64,000 nucleotides of DNA from a virus. Positions 1 through 50,027 of this stretch are shown here, piece by piece. How positions within the stretch are numbered: the first letter of the stretch is position 1; every line of letters begins with the position of its first letter. The notes under the pieces are model-generated. The model made no database searches. It saw nothing but the letters and a program-made list of their open reading frames with translations, and had not been told where the DNA came from. The DNA lies in the IMG/VR virus record IMGVR_UViG_3300032304_001168; one strand, given 5' to 3'. The position numbers and the translations under genes are program-made.

Positions 1-232
1 ATTCATCTTCGTCATCATCATCATATTCTAATTCCCAATTTGCTTCATTGTTTTTGTTTGTGATATATTGTTCCAATTCTTTGGCGACTTCCAAGTATTT
101 TTCTCTTAACTCGTGGAATTTTTCATCCTCTATTTCTTCGAATGAGGAGTAGTGTTTGAAACAATAATGAAACCCTTCTGCGTCCATTCTATAATGAACA
201 TTATTCCAGTTTTCCGCTTCTTCTGCTTTCAT
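1..232 (-). CDS. hypothetical protein (3' partial at window edge)
   Basis: ATG at 232, open to the edge: MKAEEAENWNNVHYRMDAEGFHYCF..., acidic. Confidence 0.6.
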   Translation of the reverse strand, partial: MKAEEAENWNNVHYRMDAEGFHYCFKHYSSFEEIEDEKFHELREKYLEVAKELEQYITNKNNEANWELEYDDDDEDE

Positions 233-286
233 AATAATTTTATTTTTTGATGAGTTAAAGATAAGAAAAAATTTTTGTATAAAAAA

Positions 287-1087
287 TTAAATAGGTAAAT
301 TTATTTTACTTAATAACTGATTTGAAACGTGTGTATAAATTTCAGTTGTTTTAACATTATTATGACCTGCAATCTTTTGAATTATTCTCAAATCCGTTCC
401 ATTTTCTAATAAATTGGTGAAACAAGAATGTCTGAGTTGATGAATATGATATTCTTTACCTAAGTATTGCTTTACAATTTTATTACAACTCCCAAAACTA
501 TATTTTAGATTATTTTGACCATTGAATAGATGGGTGATTGGTTTATATTCTTTATAATATTCTCTTAGAAGTTGTAGGATATTTTGTGATAGTGGAACAA
601 TCCTATCTTTTCTACCTTTGGCATTTTTGATATGGATAATCATTCTTTTGGAATCAATATCTTCAATTTTGAGATTGACTACTTCTGACACTCTTAGACC
701 TACTGAAAATGTTAGTGATAGTAGTGTCTTATGTTTTAGGTTTTTGATTTTGGAGAGTTGTTCTTTAATAAAATCACCATCAATAACTTTTGGAAGTTTC
801 TTTTCTGATTTAGGTCTTTTGAAACTTACTTTATCATATTTTTTATCCAATCCAAATTTATAGAGAAATCTGATTGCGTTAATGATTTGGTTTTGTTGAG
901 AAACTGAGGTGAAGTTATAGTTATCTAAATAAGATTGAAAATCTTGAGAGGTTAATCTAGTTGGTGATGTTTTATTATTTTCTAAAAACTGATTGATGTA
1001 AAAAAGATAGGACTTGATTGTCCTATCTGAGTAATTTAAGTATTTCAATTTTTGATTACAAATTTCGTAGTAATTTGTCTTTTTCAT
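287..1087 (-). CDS. tyrosine recombinase/integrase (integron-integrase-like N-terminal SAM domain, XerC/D-type catalytic domain)
   Basis: YSDRTIKSY N-terminal domain; GLRVSE, KGRKDR, HQLRH, AGHNNVKTTEIY catalytic motifs (R-K-H-R-H-Y). Confidence 0.93.
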   Translation of the reverse strand: MKKTNYYEICNQKLKYLNYSDRTIKSYLFYINQFLENNKTSPTRLTSQDFQSYLDNYNFTSVSQQNQIINAIRFLYKFGLDKKYDKVSFKRPKSEKKLPKVIDGDFIKEQLSKIKNLKHKTLLSLTFSVGLRVSEVVNLKIEDIDSKRMIIHIKNAKGRKDRIVPLSQNILQLLREYYKEYKPITHLFNGQNNLKYSFGSCNKIVKQYLGKEYHIHQLRHSCFTNLLENGTDLRIIQKIAGHNNVKTTEIYTHVSNQLLSKINLPI

Positions 1088-1120
1088 TGTCTAAATCATT
1101 AATTATCAAGGTTTTGAAAT

Positions 1121-1145
1121 AGGTGTTGATATATTCTAGTTATAC
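1121..1145 (+). other. attI-like recombination site 1
   Basis: AGGTGTtgATATATTcTAGTTATAC just upstream of the integrase ATG; same motif and spacing at 34567 and 47195. Confidence 0.7.
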
Positions 1146-1157
1146 TCAATTAAAAAA

Positions 1158-1352
1158 TTATTTTGAGTTCTTTAATATACCTTCTTGTTTTGACATCTCA
1201 ATAAACTCTTCGTCAGAATCAACTAAAAGAATTGAAAATAATCTACCTTCAACCATTTCCGTAGGAACATTTGATGTTAAATATCCTCTAACTATCTCCA
1301 TATCCCAGTGTTTTTCAATTCTTTCTTCCATCATTTGTGTTAAGTTTTTCAT
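1158..1352 (-). CDS. cassette ORF, hypothetical
   Basis: 64 aa ORF between GTTATAC (1139) and GTATAAC (1390). Confidence 0.7.
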   Translation of the reverse strand: MKNLTQMMEERIEKHWDMEIVRGYLTSNVPTEMVEGRLFSILLVDSDEEFIEMSKQEGILKNSK

Positions 1353-1389
1353 CTATTTTTTTTAATTTGTAAAATAATTTTTTAACTAA

Positions 1390-1443
1390 GTATAACAAAG
1401 AATATGTGTCATTAAAACGAACACATATTCTCAACCGTTATGT
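1390..1443 (+). repeat. attC-like site (54 bp type)
   Basis: GTATAAC-aa-AGAATATGTGT-cattaaaacga-ACACATATTCT-caacc-GTTATGT. Confidence 0.8.
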
Positions 1444-1510
1444 GTAAGTGTTTCATTCATCATTCTAATCAACATTTCGGTTGAAAATTTTTAAAGAAAA
1501 ATCCATCGCA

Positions 1511-2503
1511 CTATTTTTTAATTACTAAATAATTTTTATTTTCTTTATTTGAATATAACTCATATTTTGGGTTAGTTGAAACAAGTTCATCATTATTTGG
1601 TTTAACATCAAAATATTCATCATTTTTTTCATTATAACCCATAATTTTATATTTACCATATAACTTAACCCATAATTTTCTTGCTTCTGGTGTTTGCATT
1701 TTATCTGAATATAATATAGTTTTATTTATAATATAGTCATACGCCTTTGTCGCAACACCTAAACCCCTTGCTGTGTCTTTAACGCCAAGTGTTGATATTT
1801 TATATCCATTATGAAATTTATTTAACCCTACATAACCAATAGGTAAATCATCATTATATATAATTAATTTAACACCATCACTATTTTCAGCCCATTGAAA
1901 CCCTAGCCCAGAGAATTTATCAATTGATTTCGTTATTTTATCTGCTTCACCCTTCGCCCAATCCACAAATTCATTGTAATCAATTTTACCACCTACTAAA
2001 GAAGTGGTTCTCTTGATTTCATTAATTGGGTTATAATTTAGTGGTAATGGGTAATTACCTTGTTCCAAATTTTTAGAATCCCAAAATTCAGTTTTTAATT
2101 TTATATTATCCCAAAAATTGTTTTCTTTATCTAAAAAATTTTTAATTAAATAAATTGCCGAAATTCTATGAGCACCATCTTGTAAACTACCATCAACCAC
2201 AATTATCGGTGGTAAATTTTTTGTTGATTTTGGGTTTTTTATTATATAATTAGCATATTCTAACACCTTTTTCGTTACACCCCAACTATAATCTTTATCA
2301 ATTACATCACTTAATACCTCTCTATAATAAGGTATATTTTTTATTCTATTTGTAATTTCATCAACAGTTAGAAACTTTATATTAGTTGGTTTAGAATTTT
2401 TCTTAAATTCTGCTGGTTTTCCAGAACTTTCACCAGATTGTGGGATATTCTCATTCAAAAAATCTCTAATTGTGGTTTTAATAAATTGTTTCAAATTTTT
2501 CAT
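1511..2503 (-). CDS. cassette ORF: ParB/Srx-like domain plus GNAT-like acetyltransferase domain, with N-terminal ...FLNE leader
   Basis: LPPIIVVDGSLQDGAHRISA (ParB-like); TLGVKDTARGLGVATKAY (GNAT motif A). Confidence 0.65.
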   Translation of the reverse strand: MKNLKQFIKTTIRDFLNENIPQSGESSGKPAEFKKNSKPTNIKFLTVDEITNRIKNIPYYREVLSDVIDKDYSWGVTKKVLEYANYIIKNPKSTKNLPPIIVVDGSLQDGAHRISAIYLIKNFLDKENNFWDNIKLKTEFWDSKNLEQGNYPLPLNYNPINEIKRTTSLVGGKIDYNEFVDWAKGEADKITKSIDKFSGLGFQWAENSDGVKLIIYNDDLPIGYVGLNKFHNGYKISTLGVKDTARGLGVATKAYDYIINKTILYSDKMQTPEARKLWVKLYGKYKIMGYNEKNDEYFDVKPNNDELVSTNPKYELYSNKENKNYLVIKK

Positions 2504-2613
2504 TGTTTTCTTTTATATAAATATTAAGATTTAAAAAAACCACACTTCTTTTTCTTTTAAATTTTTTGTTTAGTTCTTCGATTAAACATTCTACCTTAAT
2601 TAACCACACCTAC

Positions 2614-2707
2614 ACATAACAAGGTGTATAAGAAAGTTTGCTATAAAGTTTAGTGGTAATTTGAAAGTTCATCTAAGCAAACCTTCTCATACACCCAAAC
2701 GTTATAC
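2614..2707 (+). repeat. attC-like site (94 bp type, near-identical to 49314-49407)
   Basis: ACATAAC-aa-GGTGTATaAGAAaGTTTGCT...AGCAAACcTTCTcATACACC-caaac-GTTATAC. Confidence 0.8.
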
Positions 2708-2713
2708 ACAATA

Positions 2714-2926
2714 TTACGCAACCTCTTCAACAGTTACACCAATCAAAGGATATAATCTAACCATATCAGCAAATTGAGCGTGGTTTACATTCTCAATGTT
2801 TTCACCTACTTGTAATTTAAGTCTACTCAACCTATTAAATGTTGGTGTTGAATTTAATCGTTTTAGTATTTGTTCGTTGGGTATTGTAATTTTTACAGTT
2901 TTAATATTCCTAATTTTATCAATCAT
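2714..2926 (-). CDS. hypothetical protein (distal unit of array 1, no intact attC of its own)
   Basis: 70 aa ORF; only a lone GTATAAC at 2948 follows it. Confidence 0.65.
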   Translation of the reverse strand: MIDKIRNIKTVKITIPNEQILKRLNSTPTFNRLSRLKLQVGENIENVNHAQFADMVRLYPLIGVTVEEVA

Positions 2927-2989
2927 TTCTTTGTAATGTTAATAATAGTATAACCAATCAAACAACCATAAAGTTCCAAGTTTATAATT

Positions 2990-3562
2990 TTATTTTCTAC
3001 CACGAGCTCTTTGGATTTTATATTCCCCAAACGCTTCATTTATTGCAAATGGTATTGGTTCATTATTTTCTTGATGATTCCATTTAGGGTATTTATTTTC
3101 TATTTGAAAATATTGTTTCATAAACACCTCTTCTATACCCTTAGCACTTATTGGAACATAAATTATCTCATTATTGGTTAGTCCTGGTACTTTTACTTCA
3201 ATCAAATCCATATAAACCATATAAACTTCAACTTTGTTTCCTTTATCTAATTCTTCTCTGATTAATAAATTAATGAAAAATCTATTGATACCAGGGTCAT
3301 CTTGACCTGACTTGAGATAAAAATTCATACATCCAGAAATACCATTTTTCGCGGAAGATTGACCAATTTTATAAATTATATTATTGATTACAAATAGATA
3401 AACCAAAGCCAAATGTTCGTTTTTAAGATGTTTGGGGAAATTTTCATCATAGATGAGTTTCAAAGCATTTCTATGTAAGACATAAGAATTACCCTTAAAA
3501 TCAGTTTCTCCTAAAACAATCTGACCAACTCTAATACAATTTTTTGCGATTGTTATATTCAT
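2990..3562 (-). CDS. GIY-YIG nuclease, Hpy188I-like restriction endonuclease family
   Basis: LVYLFVINNIIYKIGQS GIY-YIG hairpin, NRFF...KVEVY, conserved Glu helix, 190 aa. Confidence 0.6.
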   Translation of the reverse strand: MNITIAKNCIRVGQIVLGETDFKGNSYVLHRNALKLIYDENFPKHLKNEHLALVYLFVINNIIYKIGQSSAKNGISGCMNFYLKSGQDDPGINRFFINLLIREELDKGNKVEVYMVYMDLIEVKVPGLTNNEIIYVPISAKGIEEVFMKQYFQIENKYPKWNHQENNEPIPFAINEAFGEYKIQRARGRK

Positions 3563-3618
3563 TATATTATATATTTAAGATTACAAATCTAAAAATAATG
3601 ATAAAATTTTATAAAAAC

Positions 3619-3654
3619 AAAAAAACTCCAATAATTTTTACAATTATCGGAGTT
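3619..3654 (-). terminator. intrinsic terminator
   Basis: AACTCCgATAATTg-taaa-AATTATtGGAGTT followed by a T-run on the minus strand. Confidence 0.65.
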
Positions 3655-3718
3655 CTATATATTGACCAACATAAGAAAGGGAAGTTGGGGATTTGTGAAA
3701 TATAAATATATCGAATTT

Positions 3719-4105
3719 TCAAAAAATCTTATTTATTATAAAAAAAAGTTGATTTTCTACCTTTTTGGGTAAAGTTTTTTTGGTAAACCACTTACACTCC
3801 TCGTGTTCATGCCCATCTTGAGCCTCATCCAAATCAATATTTATCTTTTTATCAATCTCATATAAGAACAAATAGAATTTCATTCTTGACCCACCACTTA
3901 ATGTCGCCACATAATCCAAGTTATCAACAATCTGATATCCAGTTTCTTCCCTAAACTCCCTTATAGCACCATCTTGAATATTCTCGTCTTTCTCCAAATG
4001 TCCTCCAGGAACTGACCAAATACCAGGTAAACTCCCTTTCTGACTTCTTTTGCATAATAAACAATGATTTTTATATTTTAATAAAATACCTGCACAATTT
4101 CCCAT
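3719..4105 (-). CDS. NUDIX hydrolase
   Basis: GGHLEKDENIQDGAIREFREETG Nudix box. Confidence 0.9.
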   Translation of the reverse strand: MGNCAGILLKYKNHCLLCKRSQKGSLPGIWSVPGGHLEKDENIQDGAIREFREETGYQIVDNLDYVATLSGGSRMKFYLFLYEIDKKINIDLDEAQDGHEHEECKWFTKKTLPKKVENQLFFIINKIF

Positions 4106-4131
4106 AATGAATTATTATTATATTTATATAT

Positions 4132-4479
4132 ATGAAGTTAAGTATAAATGACAACATTTTCAAGGTTAAAGTTCAAACATCTCCTGAAGAAACTCAAAAA
4201 GGTATGATGAACAAAACCTTTGACAAAACATTCAATGGAATGTTATTTGTTATGAAAAACCAAGACCATTGTTTTTGGATGAAAAATTGTATTATTCCAT
4301 TGGATATCATATTCATTGATAATGATGTAATAACCAAAATACACCACAATTGTCCTCCTTGTGAAACTAAGAATTGTAAATCATATTGTGGTGAAGGAAA
4401 CTTTATACTTGAAGTTAGAGGTGGAACTTGTAAGAAATTAGACATAAAAAAGGGGGATGTTGTTTCTTTCCCCCTTTAA
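4132..4479 (+). CDS. DUF192 family protein
   Basis: KGMM...GMLF...FWMKNCIIPLDIIFID...ILEVRGG. Confidence 0.85.
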   Translation: MKLSINDNIFKVKVQTSPEETQKGMMNKTFDKTFNGMLFVMKNQDHCFWMKNCIIPLDIIFIDNDVITKIHHNCPPCETKNCKSYCGEGNFILEVRGGTCKKLDIKKGDVVSFPL

Positions 4480-4481
4480 TC

Positions 4482-6152
4482 TTAACCTTTTATTGTTTTA
4501 TTTATCAAATTTCTAAAATAGTTTTCATTAACATTTTCACTTTGTATCATTTGAATTAATTTAGCCTTAAATGATTCTGCAATTCGTTTAACAAATGCAA
4601 CATATGGTGTTTCATCTTTCTTAACACCAAACGGATTATATTTGGTTATTTTAACAACAATACCATCTTCAACTTTGACAACTCTTCTCATTGTATCAAT
4701 ATAGTATAAACCATTGTCCAAAGGTTGTTTTTTCCCTCGTTTCATTTTAAATAACGAAGCATTAAGTTCTATATTTTCAATAATTAAATCATTAATATCA
4801 ACTTTAATAATCTTATCTTCATCATCAGTTTTTCTAGGGGCTTTTTGTTCTTTTTTTGGTGGTCTTTTAGACCTAACCAAATAATTTAAACCTGAAATAT
4901 TGGTTATACATTTATGTCCACCACTATTTCTAAGTACAATATTCCAACCACTTATAAAAATATTATCTAATATTTCTTTTTCTTCGTCAGATAATTTATC
5001 AAAATGTTGATTCATTATATTTTGTAATTCCTTTTCACTTACATCTTCATCTTGGATTACATAATCATTACCATACAATGCTTTTAAATCTCTATATGTG
5101 AAACCAATTGATTCTTCAGTAAACCCTGGGTCACTTTCCGAAATCCATTTTAAAGATGATAGACTAACTTTAATATTTTTAAGTTCAGTTTCAAATTCAC
5201 TCAATACTTCATCTTTGACTTCACCTAAATTAACACCTTTCAATGCTCTATCTGTCTTAAATGGATTACAAGATACTTGAACCATCCCCATTGGAAATGC
5301 TGTTATTAAGAAATCACCCTCTGGATTATTAATGAATGGGGTATATCTATCATAAGAACCTTTTTTTCCAATATAACCTAATCCATATTGGAAGATAATT
5401 TTATCTTCAACATCAATGTCTTTATCTGTTTTTCTATTTTCAATATAATCAATTTGATTTTGTAATAATTCTTCAGATTTTTCATCAAAACTACCACCAA
5501 TTAATTCTTTTATTTTCAAATAAAGATTTATTGCGGATGGGGTACAGTCCAATACTAATGTTTCCAAAAATTTATCCTTACTTTTGAATGTCAATAACCA
5601 TTTATTAACAATAAACATAAGCATAAATCTATTCTTAGTACTAGAATTTCTAAAATTAAAGTTTAGAATATCTTGTGGTGTAATATTATATCTAATAAAA
5701 TCCGCACTATCAATTGTTGATATTGCTAAAATATCAGTTCCATAAAATAAATCGTTTGGGGATATTACATCAGATACTGTTTTGACATTTGACCTTGAAT
5801 GCGAAAATTGTTTTGATTTGGTGAATTCTGCCCCAGCTTGTGTATCGTGGTGGTCGGTATGAATTAAAAACATAGGTTTACCATGTGCAAAATCTACCAA
5901 TACCGGCATAATTTCACCACTAGCATCTGGTTTCTTAACCGCAAATTCTGATGTTCCATATTGTATAACTTCGGCATCTACTATTTCAATCCCATATCTT
6001 TCCAAATATTTTTTCATGGCTAAAGCCGTAGTAACCCCATCTAGTCAAAGGTCCTGATGAAAGTAGATCTTCGCTTTTTTGTAACGAAGTGCAAGAGAAT
6101 TAATATCTCTTATTCCACTTTCAATCAGGACTATTTTTTGTTTTTTAGTCAT
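4482..6152 (-). CDS. DHH-family phosphoesterase-like protein; in-frame TGA at 6045-6047 inside the N-terminal motif
   Basis: Upstream in-frame segment MTKKQK...IYFHQDL*LDGVTTALA joins ORF 4482-6017; motifs VDFAH, TDHH, IDSAD, GGH. Confidence 0.7.
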
Positions 6153-34566: not shown

Positions 34567-34591
34567 AGGTGTGTATATATTTTAGTTATGT
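34567..34591 (+). other. attI-like site 2 (no adjacent integrase)
   Basis: AGGTGTgtATATATTtTAGTTATGT, same spacing as 1121 and 47195. Confidence 0.6.
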
Positions 34592-34608
34592 GTAATAAAA
34601 AACTAAAA

Positions 34609-34830
34609 TTAAACTACCTCAACTTTATACAGTGTTCTATTACCTAAAATTTCTTTTGAAAAACTTTTAATCACATCATTATTTTTGTGTGAAATAGTTT
34701 CCACATCTGAATTATTCTTAAATTCTTCTAATGTTTTACTTAACCTGTTAAAGTAGATTTGTTCCCACAAAAATATACCAGTCCATTGTAAGTTTTTCAA
34801 AATAAAATCTGTTAATTTAGTTCTTTTCAT
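34609..34830 (-). CDS. cassette ORF, hypothetical
   Basis: 73 aa inside the cassette. Confidence 0.6.
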   Translation of the reverse strand: MKRTKLTDFILKNLQWTGIFLWEQIYFNRLSKTLEEFKNNSDVETISHKNNDVIKSFSKEILGNRTLYKVEVV

Positions 34831-34848
34831 ATTGTTTAATTTTTAAAA

Positions 34849-35064
34849 TTATTTACCATATCTACTATTAACAAAAACTCTATTAGCTCCCGTTGTAAGT
34901 GATAATTGATTTTGTTGCTTCATCAATAGTTCAAATTGATTTTCTATTCTTAACCTGTCTGAATTACTTTTTAACATATTAATCAATTTATCCAACTCCA
35001 TATCTCTTTTTGAAGTTAGAAAACCAATTTGTTCCTTGTAATGTAGTTCGAGTTTTTGTTCCAT
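34849..35064 (-). CDS. cassette ORF, hypothetical
   Basis: 71 aa inside the cassette. Confidence 0.6.
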   Translation of the reverse strand: MEQKLELHYKEQIGFLTSKRDMELDKLINMLKSNSDRLRIENQFELLMKQQNQLSLTTGANRVFVNSRYGK

Positions 35065-35093
35065 TTGTATAATTTTTTAGTTTTTTTACATAC

Positions 35094-35178
35094 ACATAAC
35101 AACAAATATAAGAAATAAATTTTGATTTATCTATTTTTTATAGGTAAAATTTACTTCTCATATTTGCAACCGTTAGCG
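35094..35178 (+). repeat. attC-like site (85 bp)
   Basis: ACATAAC-aa-CAAATATaAGAA...TTCTcATATTTG-caacc-GTTAGCG. Confidence 0.75.
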
Positions 35179-46253: not shown

Positions 46254-46898
46254 CTAAATCACAATTTCCCAACCTTTTTTCAAATAAAAATCTAAATCTT
46301 TTTCATCAATTTCTATTTCTCTTTCTAAATAAATTGTTTGTCTGCGATGTATATCCCCACATAGAACGATATCACATCCCTCAAATTTACTCACCTCATA
46401 TCCTGTTTCAAACTTATATCCAATGTCTGTATATAACCCTATAATAGGTCCGTGAAACAATCCAATTTTAAGGTTATTAGATTTCTCAATTGTTGGGGGA
46501 ATATTGTGTTCAAATAAAGAATATACAACCCAATCAATATTCTCATCAACATATACACCTCTATCTTTGTAATAGACAATGTTATCATTATTCATTGATT
46601 CAATGATGGGGGTTAATGTATCCAATCTTGATAAATTGTTCTCAAGCATATCATGATTTCCAACAATGATTATTGTTTTTGCAATCTTGGAACATTTATC
46701 TAATGTCCATCTAACCATTTCAATAAGTTCTGGGCTGACTTGGTTTTTACTATGGACTAGGTCGCCACTGAATACCAGTCTATCAGGTTTAATCTCTTTG
46801 AATTGATTAAACATATCAATCAATATTGATTTGTATAAATCGTGGTCTTTTATTAATCTCAAATGTAAATCAGAGAAGTGACAGATTGTTTTTATCAT
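46254..46898 (-). CDS. sbcD: SbcD/Mre11 (gp47-like) metallophosphoesterase N-terminal fragment
   Basis: SDLH, GDLVH, GNHD, FHG, GDIH. Confidence 0.9.
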   Translation of the reverse strand: MIKTICHFSDLHLRLIKDHDLYKSILIDMFNQFKEIKPDRLVFSGDLVHSKNQVSPELIEMVRWTLDKCSKIAKTIIIVGNHDMLENNLSRLDTLTPIIESMNNDNIVYYKDRGVYVDENIDWVVYSLFEHNIPPTIEKSNNLKIGLFHGPIIGLYTDIGYKFETGYEVSKFEGCDIVLCGDIHRRQTIYLEREIEIDEKDLDFYLKKGWEIVI

Positions 46899-47134
46899 TT
46901 CAGTTTTTGTTTTGATTTAATAATATTCACCAATTCTTCTTTTATTTCGTTTTGAATATCCTCATCAATATTTCCCCACCAACCATCAAAACCACCTCTA
47001 TCACATAGAGCATCAATAATTTCATTTACAATTTCTTTTTCCATTTTATTTATTTTTTTCTTCCATCAAATACAACAATCATACTAAATCAGAGAAGTGA
47101 CAGATTGTTTTTATCATTTCAGTTTTTGTTTTGA
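46866..47134 (+). repeat. 50-bp direct repeat (46866-46915 and 47085-47134) containing the sbcD start
   Basis: TAAATCAGAGAAGTGACAGATTGTTTTTATCATTTCAGTTTTTGTTTTGA present twice. Confidence 0.9.
46895..47044 (-). CDS. small hypothetical protein (49 aa, not in ORF track)
   Basis: MEKEIVNEIIDALCDRGGFDGWWGNIDEDIQNEIKEEL...; ATGA-coupled to sbcD. Confidence 0.6.
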   Translation of the reverse strand: MEKEIVNEIIDALCDRGGFDGWWGNIDEDIQNEIKEELVNIIKSKQKLK

Positions 47135-47154
47135 ATTTCGTAATAGTTTCCCAT
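47134..47154 (-). pseudogene. remnant of integrase 5' end
   Basis: MGNYYEI versus MKKTNYYEI of 287-1087, with homologous upstream DNA. Confidence 0.65.
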
Positions 47155-47194
47155 TTTTACCTCTTAAATCATTGATTATTTGAGGTTTTAAAAT

Positions 47195-47219
47195 AGGTGT
47201 TGATATATTATAGTTATAC
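47195..47219 (+). other. attI-like site 3
   Basis: AGGTGTTGATATATTATAGTTATAC, one mismatch to 1121-1145. Confidence 0.75.
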
Positions 47220-47231
47220 TCAATTAAAAAA

Positions 47232-47378
47232 TTATTTTGAGTTATATAATATATTCCATTCAGTATATGTATTTGATAATAATTCTTCTATTGTAATCCC
47301 AAATCTTATACAATCACCTAAACATATTTTGTAAAAATTCACACTTCTTTCGTTTATTATATATTCTGAAAATGTCAT
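47232..47378 (-). CDS. cassette ORF, hypothetical (48 aa, not in ORF track)
   Basis: MTFSEYIINERSVNFYKICLG...ILYNSK*. Confidence 0.6.
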   Translation of the reverse strand: MTFSEYIINERSVNFYKICLGDCIRFGITIEELLSNTYTEWNILYNSK

Positions 47379-47416
47379 ATTTGTATTTTTAATTTGTAAA
47401 ATAATTTTTTAACTAA

Positions 47417-47470
47417 GTATAACAAAGTGTAAAAAACATTAAAACTATTTTTTACACTCAACCGTTATGT
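47417..47470 (+). repeat. attC-like site (54 bp type)
   Basis: GTATAAC-aa-AGTGTAAAAAA-cattaaaacta-TTTTTTACACT-caacc-GTTATGT. Confidence 0.8.
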
Positions 47471-47474
47471 GTAA

Positions 47475-47792
47475 TTAAACAGAGAAACCCTCGTTAATCA
47501 AATATTTTGTTATTGAATGATGGTTGCTCAATGGTCTGTGTTCAATTGAAATATGTCCTTTGTTGTTTTTCCAAGTCCAAGTATGGTCAACTTCTAATTC
47601 TGAATTTACAGATAAACCATATTCAATTGTATGATAGTTATCAGATACAACACAATCTTCTACTTTAAATACAGCAATAATAAAATCTTTTTCAGGTGTC
47701 CATTCAACTTTACCAGCATTACAAGGTTTTCCGATAATCAAAGAGTATATCTGATTAATGTTTTCTATTGTTAAATCTTTTATCGTTTTCAT
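47475..47792 (-). CDS. cassette ORF, hypothetical
   Basis: MKTIKDLTIEN...; start chosen downstream of the attC-borne promoter. Confidence 0.65.
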   Translation of the reverse strand: MKTIKDLTIENINQIYSLIIGKPCNAGKVEWTPEKDFIIAVFKVEDCVVSDNYHTIEYGLSVNSELEVDHTWTWKNNKGHISIEHRPLSNHHSITKYLINEGFSV

Positions 47793-47816
47793 AAATTTTT
47801 CGTTTAAATTAACTAC

Positions 47817-47910
47817 ACATAACAAGGTGTATATGTAATTTTTTTACAAAGGTACGAATAAGTTTTGACATTTCCAAATAAAAAACTACATATACACCCA
47901 TACGTTATAA
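47817..47910 (+). repeat. attC-like site with internal promoter
   Basis: ACATAAC-aa-GGTGTATATGTA...TACATATACACC-catac-GTTATAA. Confidence 0.8.
47847..47878 (-). promoter_or_regulatory. Bacteroidota promoter inside attC loop
   Basis: TTTG-N20-TACCTTTG. Confidence 0.75.
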
Positions 47911-47922
47911 GCAATATTATTT

Positions 47923-48165
47923 TTATTTTGAGTATCTATTTTTAAAATCCTCAAATGCTTCTAAAATTGTGTTTCCCACACCATAGTTCACATGTTCCCA
48001 TTCTTCTTTCATAAAGTGATGTGGGTCATATTGCCACTCTTCGTTTCCTTCAAGTGAGTTTACACAATCAGCATCACAACATGTTTCTACAATAGCAAAT
48101 TTACCGTGTCTCATGTGAACTATGGTCATTGGGTAAATGTCTTCAATTTTGTTTATATTCTTCAT
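47923..48165 (-). CDS. cassette ORF, hypothetical
   Basis: 80 aa between cassette inverted repeats. Confidence 0.65.
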   Translation of the reverse strand: MKNINKIEDIYPMTIVHMRHGKFAIVETCCDADCVNSLEGNEEWQYDPHHFMKEEWEHVNYGVGNTILEAFEDFKNRYSK

Positions 48166-48207
48166 AATTTTAAGTTTTTTAAATCGGTAAAATAAAAATA
48201 ATACAGC

Positions 48208-48261
48208 TTATAACAACAAATATATTGCATTAAAACGACAATATATTTGCAACCGTTATGT
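48208..48261 (+). repeat. attC-like site (54 bp type)
   Basis: TTATAAC-aa-CAAATATATTG-cattaaaacga-CAATATATTTG-caacc-GTTATGT. Confidence 0.8.
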
Positions 48262-48278
48262 GTAATAAAAAATAACTA

Positions 48279-48482
48279 TCAAACCTCGTTTCCATCATCA
48301 AAGATTGTAAAACACGATTTGTCTGATAAAGTCACCTTATATCCAACATATCCACCATCTGCAAAAATGTGCAAGTCTGTTATCCATTCATCAGTTGCAC
48401 CTTTTTCATCTAATTTGCTTTGTATTTTCACTCTTGCTGCATCGTGTTTTACAAAGTCTAATGTTATTCTATTTGCCCACAT
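48279..48482 (-). CDS. cassette ORF, hypothetical
   Basis: 67 aa between cassette inverted repeats. Confidence 0.65.
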   Translation of the reverse strand: MWANRITLDFVKHDAARVKIQSKLDEKGATDEWITDLHIFADGGYVGYKVTLSDKSCFTIFDDGNEV

Positions 48483-48517
48483 ATTATTAAGTTTAGTTTA
48501 AGTTATTTTTTACATAC

Positions 48518-48610
48518 ACATAACAAGGTGTATATGTAATTTTTTACAAAAGTACGAATAAGTTTTGACATTTCCAAATAAAAAACTACATATACACCCA
48601 ACCGTTAGCA
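48518..48610 (+). repeat. attC-like site with internal promoter (near-identical to 47817-47910)
   Basis: same stem; loop contains minus-strand TTTG-N20-TACTTTTG at 48547-48578. Confidence 0.8.
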
Positions 48611-48634
48611 CCAATACTACGAAAGTGCTTCGAT

Positions 48635-49252
48635 TTAAATTTCGTTTGGATTTTCATAGATTATTACTGGGATTTTTTTAATTTTTAATCTTTTTGCAGC
48701 TTCCCATCTATGATGTCCATCTAATATACCAAAATCATAATCAAGTAATATTGGTGGTAATTCATCACCATTTTTTAATTTCTTAATTATGTTCAATATA
48801 TTTTGTTCTTCTTGTTTTTCAGTTCCATATATTCTCGAATCATTGGTATCAATATATTTCAATTTACTCAAATATCTCCCAATCTCAATACCTCTCGTAT
48901 CACTCCACAAATATTTTTGTTTATTAACCAAATCTGTGTCAGTATTATACACCAAATCTGGTTTCTTTTCTTTTGGTTGTTTTAATTTTGGTTCAATTTT
49001 TATACCTTTTTTGGTTTCAACAAAATTGAAAAGATTTATAATATCACTTGGATTATCTTCACCAAATATTTTGCTAAATTGTTTATTATTATGCTCAACG
49101 GCACGATTCACATCATTGTATGCAGTCTCCAAATCTTTATAGTATCTATCTTTAAAAGATGAATACCACCCATACATTTTTTTTACATCTAAATCTTGGC
49201 TTTCATTAAGATATTCTCTTATTGTAGTTGCTATAAATTTTCTCAATTCCAT
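48635..49252 (-). CDS. cassette ORF: ParB/Srx-like domain protein with ...YLNE leader
   Basis: LPPILLD...ILDGHHRWEAAKRL...IPVI. Confidence 0.75.
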   Translation of the reverse strand: MELRKFIATTIREYLNESQDLDVKKMYGWYSSFKDRYYKDLETAYNDVNRAVEHNNKQFSKIFGEDNPSDIINLFNFVETKKGIKIEPKLKQPKEKKPDLVYNTDTDLVNKQKYLWSDTRGIEIGRYLSKLKYIDTNDSRIYGTEKQEEQNILNIIKKLKNGDELPPILLDYDFGILDGHHRWEAAKRLKIKKIPVIIYENPNEI

Positions 49253-49313
49253 GTTCTTTTACTTTATATATAAATATTCCAAAATTAAATTTTTGCTAAA
49301 CAAACCGTACTGG

Positions 49314-49407
49314 TGCTAACAAGGTGTATAAGAAAGTTTGCTATCAATATTTGTGGTAATTTGAGAGTTCATCTAAGCAAACCTTCTAATACACCCAACC
49401 GTTAGCA
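49314..49407 (+). repeat. attC-like site (94 bp type)
   Basis: TGCTAAC-aa-GGTGTAT...ATACACC-caacc-GTTAGCA. Confidence 0.8.
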
Positions 49408-49419
49408 GTAATATTGTGG

Positions 49420-49659
49420 CTACTTCCCAATTGGTCTATTACAAGTTGCACAGATATAACTACCATTCATTAAATAACATTGAGATTGCTGACAGCCACA
49501 ATACATACTGCTAACATCGGCTATACGCAAGTTTTTTGCTTCCGTTAGTCGGTTAATAACATTGTTTGCCTCTATCAACATTTCAATCAATTTGTCTTTT
49601 TCTATCATTTGATACATCTCTACTTTTTCAGAGTGTGTCATTTCAATTACTTGCATCAT
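49420..49659 (-). CDS. cassette ORF starting inside its attC loop; C-terminal Cys-rich zinc finger
   Basis: KNLRIADVSS encoded by the attC arm; CGC...CATC. Confidence 0.65.
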   Translation of the reverse strand: MMQVIEMTHSEKVEMYQMIEKDKLIEMLIEANNVINRLTEAKNLRIADVSSMYCGCQQSQCYLMNGSYICATCNRPIGK

Positions 49660-49722
49660 ATATTTTAATTTTAGTGTTTCAAATTCGCAAAAAACCTGAC
49701 GTATAGCCGAGAACCGTTATAG
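49509..49722 (+). repeat. attC-like site with long coding loop (214 bp)
   Basis: TGCTAAC-a-TCGGCTATACG-CAAGTTTTTTGC...GCAAAAAACCTG-a-CGTATAGCCGA-gaacc-GTTATAG. Confidence 0.75.
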
Positions 49723-49980
49723 ATAATAAGCATCCAACACACTTTCAATATAACCTATTGATATGTGTATTTTAACTAAATCATCATATGTTTTTATACG
49801 TTCAAAAAATTCCTCTTTATTCAACCACTCCACATAGAAACCACCTTCATGTAAATTCATACAATATCCATCATATTCCGTATAAAAACTATCTAACAGC
49901 TTACTATCTATAACATCAGATATATGTAATTTTTCATTACTCTTATCTAAGTTTTGTTCTAAATTTTTATCTTCTTTCAT
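49717..49980 (-). CDS. cassette ORF starting inside its attC loop
   Basis: KLHISDVIDS encoded by the attC arm; stop codon in the GTTA core. Confidence 0.65.
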   Translation of the reverse strand: MKEDKNLEQNLDKSNEKLHISDVIDSKLLDSFYTEYDGYCMNLHEGGFYVEWLNKEEFFERIKTYDDLVKIHISIGYIESVLDAYYL

Positions 49981-50027
49981 CTTATTAAATTTTGTGTTAA
50001 AACTACATATATCTGTAACCGTTATAA
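49908..50027 (+). repeat. attC-like site with coding loop (120 bp)
   Basis: CTATAAC-at-CAGATATATGTA...TACATATATCTG-taacc-GTTATAA. Confidence 0.8.

What the first reader, a model, noticed from the sequence alone, without database searches (positions are those of the whole stretch)
1139..1400. Same cassette 'shell' reused with unrelated cargo
Seen: the first cassettes of arrays 1 and 3 share the left end GTTATACTCAATTAAAAAATTATTTTGAGTT, so both ORFs end ...NSK*. They also share the right end TTTTTAATTTGTAAAATAATTTTTTAACTAAGTATAACAAAG, yet the ORF bodies (1158-1352 vs 47232-47378) are unrelated. Cassettes at 34585 and 48255 likewise share GTTATGTGTAATAAAAAA...TTTTTTACATACACATAACAA around different ORFs and different attC loops. 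Inference: new cassettes may arise by swapping cargo inside a pre-existing shell. How integron cassettes originate is an open question.
Basis: partly seen in the sequence, partly recalled or inferred. Interest (0 to 1): 0.7.

Follow-up and report, generated by a model that had tools for sequence, protein, structure and literature searches.

The report
One cassette shell, many unrelated genes
In this lake-water phage the two ends of a mobile gene cassette form a standard "shell", a split recombination site, that encloses at least eight unrelated small genes in related phages, so shell and gene have separate histories and the origin of such cassettes can be studied directly.

Summary
The first cassettes of arrays 1 and 3 share 31 identical bases on the left and 42 on the right (0 expected by chance). 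Their ORFs (64 and 48 aa) show no similarity by BLASTP or profile comparison.

The shell is the cassette-borne part of an extended attC-like site. The two arms are inverted repeats. When the cassette ends are joined, they zip with the inner hairpin into a three-tier stem of 15+8+11 bp.

In viral and lake metagenome contigs the identical arms enclose eight unrelated ORF families; a ninth has the right arm only. All eight use the arm's own TAA in one frame, giving tails of the type ..SK*. The ATG lies 38-47 nt from the AAC core.

Three cargo families have relatives outside the shell, either as ordinary phage genes or in a sister shell. Their similarity stops near the ATG and at the last two or three codons. 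Its direction and mechanism remain inferred.

The second pair (34585/48255) is weak: it shares only an R-box class and an A-run.

This scan had already noted the phage integron-like system on other genomes, and the long inverted ends on this one.

The parts
287..1087 (-). 266-aa tyrosine recombinase beside array 1
   Evidence: Pfam PF00589 (E 6e-34) and PF13495. The best solved relative is archaeal XerA 4a8e (E 3e-39). Vibrio IntI 2a3v matches only in two stretches. 63 relatives were found in viral contigs, and attC-like sites lie on one strand beside them.
1088..1138 (.). attI-like head of array 1, ending at the crossover G (1139)
   Evidence: Roughly 80% identical to 47115-47212. Similar ..ATATAT(N)TA heads precede the same cassettes in L087, L089, L091 and L106.
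1139..1169 (+). Left arm of the shell: R' core GTTATAC, outer arm, stop codon (1158-1160) and the last three codons N-S-K of the cargo ORF
   Evidence: Identical to 47213-47243. The same 28-31 nt head eight cargo families.
1158..1352 (-). Cargo ORF c2 (64 aa, MKNLTQ..)
   Evidence: Only close relatives (88-97% identity) were found, all ending ..NSK (one reads through the stop). No Pfam family.
1359..1396 (+). Right arm of the shell: A/T-rich 5' leader, outer arm and R'' core GTATAAC (1390-1396)
   Evidence: Identical to 47386-47423. It is the inverted repeat of the left arm.
1397..1437 (+). Inner hairpin of attC 1: spacer AA, 11-bp stem, 11-nt loop, spacer CAACC, crossover G
   Evidence: Own detector. 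Its stem differs from that of 47424-47464 but is paired in both.
47115..47212 (.). attI-like head of array 3, with a relic of the recombinase 5' end
   Evidence: Alignment. Sequence read.
47213..47243 (+). Left arm of the same shell in array 3
47232..47378 (-). Cargo ORF c1 (48 aa, MTFSEY..)
   Evidence: It belongs to a family with conserved TFSEYII..RS..FY and WNILYN blocks, found in proteins of 47-209 aa. The whole cassette sits in 10 or more different neighbourhoods.
47386..47423 (+). Right arm of the same shell in array 3
47424..47464 (+). Inner hairpin of the first attC of array 3
34585..35172 (+). Two-ORF cassette of array 2 (ORFs 34609-34830 and 34849-35064 on the - strand) with its 72-nt inner hairpin
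   Evidence: A 92%-identical copy in L054:7575-8158 carries compensatory changes in both R boxes.
48255..48604 (+). Fourth cassette of array 3 (ORF 48279-48482 on the - strand). It shares only the R-box class and an A-run with 34585.
1437..2701 (+). Second cassette of array 1 (ORF 1511-2503 on the - strand). This is another shell, whose right arm encodes an 18-23-aa N-terminal leader.
   Evidence: Relatives in the same shell share only residues 1-23 (MKxLKQFIKTTIRxFLNE) on bodies of 142-330 aa. Contigs in three metagenomes join 1447-1514 to 2444-2611 with other letters between.
2..232 (-). Gene with no shell at its 5' end that is homologous to cargo family c6. Its 3' end is cut by the window edge.
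   Evidence: 64.5% identity over 62 aa to the shell-borne c6. Where c6 ends ..KNSK*, this gene runs on as ..KNNEANWELEYDDDDEDE.

Best explanation
The shell is the part of an extended attC-like recombination site that travels with the cassette.

Anatomy. The left arm is 31 nt: core GTTATAC, an outer arm, the stop codon and the last two or three codons. The right arm is about 38 nt: an A/T-rich leader, an outer arm and core GTATAAC. The arms are inverted repeats. When the cassette's ends are joined, as in an excised circle, they zip with the inner hairpin into one three-tier hairpin.

Two processes act on these cassettes.
1. The recombinase moves whole cassettes (arms plus cargo, usually with their hairpin) by crossover at G|TT.
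2. A rarer, non-site-specific event exchanges the ORF between constant arms. The exchanged piece runs from about the ATG to the third-last codon and always lies in the frame of the arm's own TAA.

New cassettes thus arise as chimeras of a stock shell and a gene from the phage gene pool.

What is shown and what is inferred. Shown: the chimeric structure, the mobility of the whole unit, the fixed geometry, and cargo relatives outside the shell. Inferred: that the swap uses short homologies in the A/T-rich gene ends, and that cargo enters an existing cassette rather than arms being added to a gene.
For: - Identical arms around unrelated ORFs in the window.
- The same arms enclose eight unrelated ORF families of 31-82 aa in viral and metagenome contigs. 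In all eight the stop lies at nt 20-22 in one frame and the ATG lies 38-47 nt from the R'' C. There is no cross-similarity apart from the tails.
- Contigs from three lake metagenomes match up to 1166-1179 and again from 1357-1359, with other letters between.
- Whole cassettes recur in 10 or more neighbourhoods, bounded at GTT.
- Circle-junction fold: 15+8+11 bp, dG -21.7 against -9.3 kcal/mol in array context, z = -8.
- Own-end complementarity has a median of 15 nt, against 4 nt for random pairs, over 216 cassettes.
- Cargo outside the shell:
  - c6 is a large phage family (phrog_17752; cultured phages). It includes shell-less genes in the window (2-232) and in L112.
  - c7 is about 90% identical in three shell-less contexts, with identity confined to the stretch from stop codon to ATG. 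Its native end TTATTTTGTT differs from the shell's TTATTTTGAG by 2 nt.
  - c1 is 75% identical to a copy in a sister shell.
- Data-set-wide: 305 of 355 shell-sharing pairs have unrelated cargo.
- An almost empty shell exists at L058:9303-9459.
Against: - No intermediate of a swap was caught, so direction and mechanism are inferred.
- Arms are more uniform between cargo families than cargo copies are within a family. Homogenisation of arms could also produce this.
- c2 has no relative outside the shell, so for the finding's own array-1 ORF the 'captured gene' step is unshown.
- Relatedness of very short proteins is hard to exclude; no structures were compared.
- A shared site around unrelated ORFs could also come from a dedicated cassette-making route.
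- Metagenome contigs can be chimeric, although the same junctions recur in many samples.
Confidence: 0.55

Rival explanations
1. Arms spread, not cargo. Resident genes or older cassettes acquire this arm pair by gene conversion, or by hairpin-templated repair from neighbouring cassettes. On this view the shell is homogenised across cassettes (concerted evolution) and cargo never moves.
For: - Arms are 100% identical across cargo families, while copies within a family differ by 2-25%.
- The array-2 cassette and its 92%-identical copy differ by compensatory changes in both R boxes, so arms can change in concert without any cargo exchange.
- Inner hairpins are exchanged at the R'' core between otherwise identical cassettes.
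Against: - Two arms would have to be installed at ORF-precise places and in one frame in eight families.
- The sister shells (GTTATAC.. and GTTAGGTT..) coexist in the same arrays without being merged (L075, L086, L004).
- Shell-less relatives lie in unrelated gene neighbourhoods, such as next to ThyX or DNA polymerase genes.
Confidence: 0.2
2. A dedicated cassette-making route attaches a standard site module to each ORF independently. An RNA-mediated route has been proposed for group IIC-attC introns. The shared shell would then be the stamp of that machinery, not of swapping within cassettes.
For: - Junctions are ORF-precise (at the ATG and at the last codons) in all families.
- Homogeneous attC sites around unrelated ORFs in chromosomal integrons have led to the same idea (PMC8352920, PMC8618304; reference list of PMC8946536).
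Against: - I did not come across an intron or a reverse transcriptase, but I made no dedicated search.
- Left junctions are graded (28-47 nt) rather than fixed.
- The c1 and c2 cassettes share 10 nt beyond the common arm.
- The same ORF-precise mobility is seen between shell-less contexts.
Confidence: 0.12
3. The paired ORFs are fast-diverging homologs inside a conserved frame.
For: The tails are shared (..ILKNSK* and ..ILYNSK*), and all the products are small.
Against: - No alignment at E<=100.
- Profile comparisons give probabilities below 1%.
- Lengths range from 31 to 82 aa, and one family is a membrane helix.
- c1 and c6 each have their own conserved motifs, which the other families lack.
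Confidence: 0.03
4. Chance resemblance of low-complexity A/T-rich ends.
For: The window is 28% G+C.
Against: No matches in 100 shuffles even with 3 mismatches allowed. Exact copies occur in 40 or more independent contigs.
Confidence: 0.01

Closest known systems
Sedentary chromosomal integrons with homogeneous attC sites (e.g. the Vibrio cholerae repeats)
   Same: - Arrays of mostly single-ORF cassettes.
- A family-type recombination site around unrelated ORFs.
- Cores ..TAAC and GTTA.., with exchange at G|TT.
- The start of each cassette complements its own end.
- Cassette formation is an open question in that field too (PMC8618304, PMC8352920).
   Different: - The recombinase is a 266-aa Xer-like enzyme.
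- ORFs lie on the strand opposite to the classical layout.
- The conserved part is the arms outside the R boxes (up to 26 bp of pairing), not the whole site.
- The inner hairpin varies and is itself exchangeable.
- The arms supply the stop codon and tail, or in another shell an N-terminal leader.
attC clusters without an integrase (CALINs) reported in phage genomes (Qi et al. 2023, PMC9892861)
   Same: attC-type sites and cassettes carried by virulent phages, including a phage of a Bacteroidota host.
   Different: Those were found with classical attC models and tested with IntI1. That paper's section on virulent-phage CALINs (3.4, the only section I read) describes no phage-encoded short recombinase, extended arms or shell/cargo modularity.
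PeSL regulatory cassettes of T4-type phages (Arbiol et al. 2010, PMC2839356)
   Same: Short repeated modules flank small genes of unknown function in the plastic regions of large phages. They shuffle these genes one by one and can release mini-circles.
   Different: PeSLs are promoter-plus-terminator repeats exchanged by recombination between PeSLs. Here the module is an inverted arm pair plus a hairpin with a GTT/AAC core beside a tyrosine recombinase. No promoter was recognised in the arms.
Group IIC-attC intron model of cassette formation (Leon and Roy 2009; cited in PMC3001079 and PMC8946536)
   Same: It addresses the same step: joining an ORF to a recombination site.
   Different: I did not come across an intron or a reverse transcriptase (no dedicated search). 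Junctions are graded and lie inside the coding sequence.

Membership tests
Classical integron (IntI, attI, attC) | Integrase of the IntI clade with its extra segment | tested here: inconclusive
   The protein is 266 aa and Pfam finds only PF00589 and PF13495. The best solved match is XerA. IntI 2a3v matches in two stretches that break near residue 177/180. The insertion was not examined residue by residue here. Earlier notes of this scan report it as absent.
Classical integron (IntI, attI, attC) | attC sites: R''-L''-loop-L'-R' imperfect hairpins with cores RYYYAAC and GTTRRRY | tested here: met
   10 sites on the + strand of the window and 0 on the - strand. Across all loci, 464 sites on the main strand against 43 on the other.
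Classical integron (IntI, attI, attC) | Cassettes exchanged as units at G|TT | tested here: met
   The c1 cassette occurs in 10 or more neighbourhoods and the c2 cassette in 6, and identity starts and stops at GTT.
Classical integron (IntI, attI, attC) | ORF reads towards its own attC and is expressed from a promoter at the integrase end | tested here: not met
   All cassette ORFs lie on the - strand, so the attC adjoins the 5' end of its ORF and the ORFs read towards the recombinase gene.
Classical integron (IntI, attI, attC) | Extrahelical bases in the L stem that set strand choice | tested here: inconclusive
   The 11-bp L stems of the 54-nt sites are perfect. The asymmetry is a 2-nt against 5-nt internal loop. 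No functional test was made.
Homogeneous attC family of a chromosomal integron (VCR-like) | One near-identical site around many unrelated ORFs | tested here: met
   Met for the arms: eight ORF families. Not met for the inner hairpin, which differs between c1 and c2 and is swapped among copies.
PeSL-type modular shuffling | Module consists of a promoter plus a terminator stem-loop | tested here: not met
   Reading both strands of the arms by eye found no match to the Bacteroidota -7 box TAnnTTTG. No U-run follows the hairpins. No expression data.
MITE / TIR transposon | Terminal inverted repeats with target-site duplication and a transposase | tested here: not met
   Inverted repeats are present. 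But the units abut at GTT cores inside arrays, with no duplicated flank, and they lie beside a tyrosine recombinase.

The most novel reading that the evidence does not exclude
Large phages of lake bacteria mint integron-type cassettes themselves. A small stock of arm pairs would act as ready-made mobility-and-expression vectors: they supply the recombination half-sites, the stop codon and tail or an N-terminal leader, and perhaps RNA end-pairing. Genes from the phage gene pool would be dropped in ORF by ORF through short-homology recombination. That would give a concrete, testable route for the long-unknown step of cassette genesis.
Probability: 0.3. Interest if true: 0.85.

Novelty: new variant of a known kind. 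Interest (0 to 1): 0.6.

Why it matters
How integron-type cassettes are made is listed among the outstanding questions of the field (PMC8618304). This window and its relatives provide a natural series bearing on that question:
- one arm pair around eight unrelated genes;
- the same genes in a sister shell or as ordinary phage genes;
- junctions mapped to a few bases.

That turns "where do cassettes come from" into something that can be dated, counted and rebuilt in a test tube.

It also shows that in these phage arrays the unit has three separable modules: arms, cargo and inner hairpin. The arms reach into the coding sequence, so every captured protein gets a shell-encoded end.

Tried and rejected
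- Rfam and tRNA scans of the window found nothing.
- No whole genome is held for this window, so the 3' end of the gene at 2-232 and the rest of the phage could not be read.
- DNA search of 1-6000 against cultured phages gave only weak hits. The best was an endonuclease-like gene at about 3014-3440, similar to Synechococcus phage S-PM2.
- I first read the shared ..Y(I/V)N(D/N)KNSK* of families c6 and c7 as a relic of c6 left inside c7. I rejected this because shell-less c7 genes natively end ..YVNNKK(T/P/V)...
- The context of P0004 (c6 ending ..NSKQ) could not be fetched.
- The c2 family has no distant relatives. c1 has none in cultured phages.
- The RNA run X19 holds only a relative of the cassette-2 gene at 90-95% likeness, so it says nothing about expression of this shell.
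- My first regular expression for attC sites was too loose and was replaced by a stem-checking detector.
- In my first all-against-all comparison, nested mis-called cassettes and shell-encoded leaders inflated 'related cargo'. This was corrected by trimming ends and dropping nested units.
- No structure prediction or complex prediction was run: the proteins are very short and the question was answered by sequence.

Full report
**Setting**

The window is 28% G+C with densely packed genes, mostly on the - strand. It carries three arrays of hairpin-bounded units:
- array 1 from 1139, next to a 266-aa tyrosine recombinase (287-1087, - strand);
- array 2 from 34585;
- array 3 from 47213 to 50021.

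A detector that asks for ..TAAC, a 9-bp stem and GTTA.. finds 10 sites on the + strand and none on the - strand. Every unit starts with the reverse complement of its own end, as integron cassettes do. All ORFs lie on the - strand, so each attC-like site adjoins the 5' end of its ORF.

The recombinase has the Phage_integrase and SAM-like domains. Among solved structures it is closest to archaeal XerA. Vibrio IntI matches in two stretches only.

Earlier notes of this scan describe the same kind of system on this genome and on other genomes. I re-derived what I needed rather than relying on them.

**The observation**

- 1139-1169 equals 47213-47243 (31 nt), and 1359-1400 equals 47386-47427 (42 nt). 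Each pattern occurs twice, with none expected from shuffles.
- Identity continues to nt 41 with two mismatches. It also continues leftwards into the attI-like heads, which are about 80% identical; array 3 keeps a relic of the recombinase 5' end there.
- The products are 64 aa and 48 aa. They give no BLASTP alignment at E<=100.
- The second pair (34585 and 48255) shares only 18 and 21 nt: an R-box class that is common in the data set, plus an A-run. Their outer arms differ, and each pairs with its own partner.

**What the shell is**

The left end and the reverse complement of the right end match over 26 nt with three mismatches. When the cassette's ends are joined, as in an excised circle, single-stranded DNA folds into a 15-bp outer stem, an 8-bp R stem and the 11-bp inner stem. 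The energy is dG -21.7 kcal/mol (z about -8). The same site in its array context gives -9.3 and forms the inner stem only.

Over 216 cassettes from relatives, a cassette's own ends pair over a median of 15 nt, against 4 nt for random pairs.

The shell is therefore the cassette-borne part of one long split palindrome, not two unrelated flanks.

**The same shell elsewhere**

Exact-pattern scans of viral contigs and of metagenome contigs returned 48 occurrences. They fall into eight ORF families with both arms, plus a ninth (L085) with the right arm only:

| Family | Product | Note |
|---|---|---|
| c1 | MTFSEY.., 48 aa | the array-3 ORF |
| c2 | MKNLTQ.., 64 aa | the array-1 ORF |
| c3 | 68 aa | |
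| c4 | 31 aa | membrane helix |
| c5 | 49-51 aa | |
| c6 | 63 aa | |
| c7 | 82 aa | |
| c8 | 74 aa | |

- The families share nothing but their tails.
- In all eight the stop codon is the arm's TAA at nt 20-22, read in the same frame. The tails are (N/Y/K)(S/L)K*. The ATG lies 38-47 nt from the C of the AAC core.
- If frames were independent, seven further families would share the first one's frame with probability about (1/3)^7.
- Between families, identity stops 28-47 nt from the left end and 25-52 nt from the right end. That places the junctions at the second- or third-last codon and 1-11 nt upstream of the ATG.
- As an independent check, contigs of three lake-water metagenomes match the window up to 1166, 1169 or 1179 and again from 1357-1359, with other letters between.

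**Whole cassettes move as units**

The c1 cassette, always with its own inner hairpin, lies behind attI-like heads and behind several different attC sites. It is followed by ten different next cassettes, and identity starts and stops at GTT. The c2 cassette behaves likewise.

This is the site-specific process. It cannot by itself put a new ORF between the arms.

**Cargo has a life outside the shell**

- c6 belongs to a family of at least 72 protein clusters. It matches phrog_17752 and occurs in cultured Mannheimia and Tunturiibacter phages.
  - Most members carry an acidic C-terminal tail. Shell-borne members stop at ..KNSK*, and variants end ..NSKQ* or ..NSE*.
  - The window itself holds a relative with no shell at its 5' end, at 2-232 next to the recombinase gene. 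It is 64.5% identical and runs on as ..KNNEANWELEYDDDD.. where c6 stops.
  - L112 has a shell-less copy of equal length next to thyX. L109 is a decayed cassette beside DNA polymerase genes.
- c7 is about 90% identical at the DNA level in the shell and in three different shell-less neighbourhoods. In every case the identity runs from the stop codon to the ATG and no further. Its native 3' end differs from the shell's inner block by two bases.
- c1 belongs to a family in which the block WNILYN(S) is native, including a 209-aa protein. A 75%-identical copy lies in a sister shell that starts GTTAGGTTCAATTAAATTATTG and ends the protein ..NSKQ*.
- c3 occurs at 76% identity in a shell with the same outer arms but covarying R boxes. 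c8 occurs at 37% identity in the sister shell.
- The two sister shells coexist in the same arrays.

**Generality**

From 125 loci I obtained 283 unique cassettes.
- 355 pairs share both ends over at least 20 nt, and 305 of these have unrelated cargo bodies.
- 97 pairs have related cargo, and 30 of these sit in shells that share 12 nt or less at either end.
- In most cassettes the stop codon lies in the first 25 nt, often in the GTTA core itself.
- The second cassette of array 1 shows the mirror case. Its shell carries an 18-23-aa N-terminal leader on unrelated bodies of 142-330 aa, and metagenome contigs again show replaced interiors.
- A nearly empty shell, with arms and 30 nt between them, exists at L058:9303-9459.

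**Interpretation**

Shown:
- The shell is a split recombination site.
- It is reused with unrelated cargo.
- Shell and cargo have separate histories.
- The junctions sit at ORF ends, in one frame.

Inferred: the exchange is most simply explained by recombination at the short A/T-rich sequences that all genes of these phages share at their starts (..AAAT-ATG) and ends (..AAA-TAA). This would account for three things:
- the ORF-precise junctions;
- the preserved frame, because the homology includes the stop codon;
- the same ORF-precise mobility between shell-less contexts.

I cannot tell whether cargo enters an existing cassette or arms are installed around a gene. The uniformity of the arms and the concerted change of R boxes in a 92%-identical cassette pair keep a conversion model alive.

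**Comparison with what is known**

- Conserved attC sites around unrelated ORFs are the rule in sedentary chromosomal integrons, and cassette formation is an acknowledged open problem (PMC8618304, PMC8352920).
- attC clusters in phages have been reported (PMC9892861).
- In T4-type phages, repeated promoter-terminator modules shuffle small genes and release mini-circles (PMC2839356).
- What differs here:
  - the conserved part is a pair of inverted arms beyond the R boxes, reaching into the coding sequence;
  - the inner hairpin is a separate, exchangeable module;
  - the enzyme is Xer-like;
  - gene orientation is reversed;
  - donors of the cargo can be named.

I file it as a new variant of a known kind.

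Noticed in passing
L075:1307-1521 vs L090:68-283; L120:681-936 and L122:1156-1414 vs window 1139-1437; L077:122-405 vs L078:3296-3581: Identical shell-plus-cargo units carry quite different inner hairpins (41-nt, about 72-nt and 27-nt types). The break lies exactly at TAAC|AA. The hairpin is therefore a third exchangeable module, and crossovers seem to occur at the R'' core as well as at G|TT. This might reflect recombination of either strand.
   Followed up: partly
window 34585-35172 vs L054:7575-8158: Two copies of the two-ORF cassette are 92% identical but differ by compensatory changes in both R boxes (GTTATGTGTA/TACACATAAC against GTTATAAGTA/TACTTATAAC). This is direct covariation of a cassette's two ends.
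   Followed up: yes
L061:9409-9582, L021:9803-9948, L045:9751-9936, L058:9303-9459: Cassettes without any ORF of 25 aa or more. Three share the GTTATAAGTAAT.. shell and hold 100-113-nt bodies, one of which has a G+C-rich hairpin (possibly small RNAs). One is an almost empty shell.
   Followed up: no
window 1437-2701 (ORF 1511-2503, - strand): The right arm of this shell encodes the leader MKNLKQFIKTTIRDFLNE. Relatives carry the same leader on unrelated bodies. The left arm is a shared non-coding stretch of 64-83 nt.
   Followed up: partly
window 47090-47135 and 46870-46918: About 48 nt covering the 5' end of gene 46254-46898 and the bases just upstream are duplicated between that gene and the recombinase relic at the head of array 3. 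This looks like a scar of the deletion that removed the recombinase gene.
   Followed up: no
L096, L108, L109, L085 (around the AAATAATTTTTTAACTAAGTATAAC match): Decayed or fused cassettes. In some the left arm or its GTTATAC core is deleted, so the cargo abuts the previous unit. L109 keeps only the inner block TCATTCTGAGTT beside DNA polymerase genes. These look like cassettes becoming fixed genes.
   Followed up: partly
window 2990-3562 (- strand): A 190-aa ORF just beyond array 1 is about 70% identical at the DNA level to an endonuclease gene of Synechococcus phage S-PM2. It is possibly a homing endonuclease.
   Followed up: no
window 2702-2954: The third unit of array 1 starts GTTATACACAAT and ends with the matching GTATAAC, but has no complete hairpin after it. 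This is a truncated array end.
   Followed up: no
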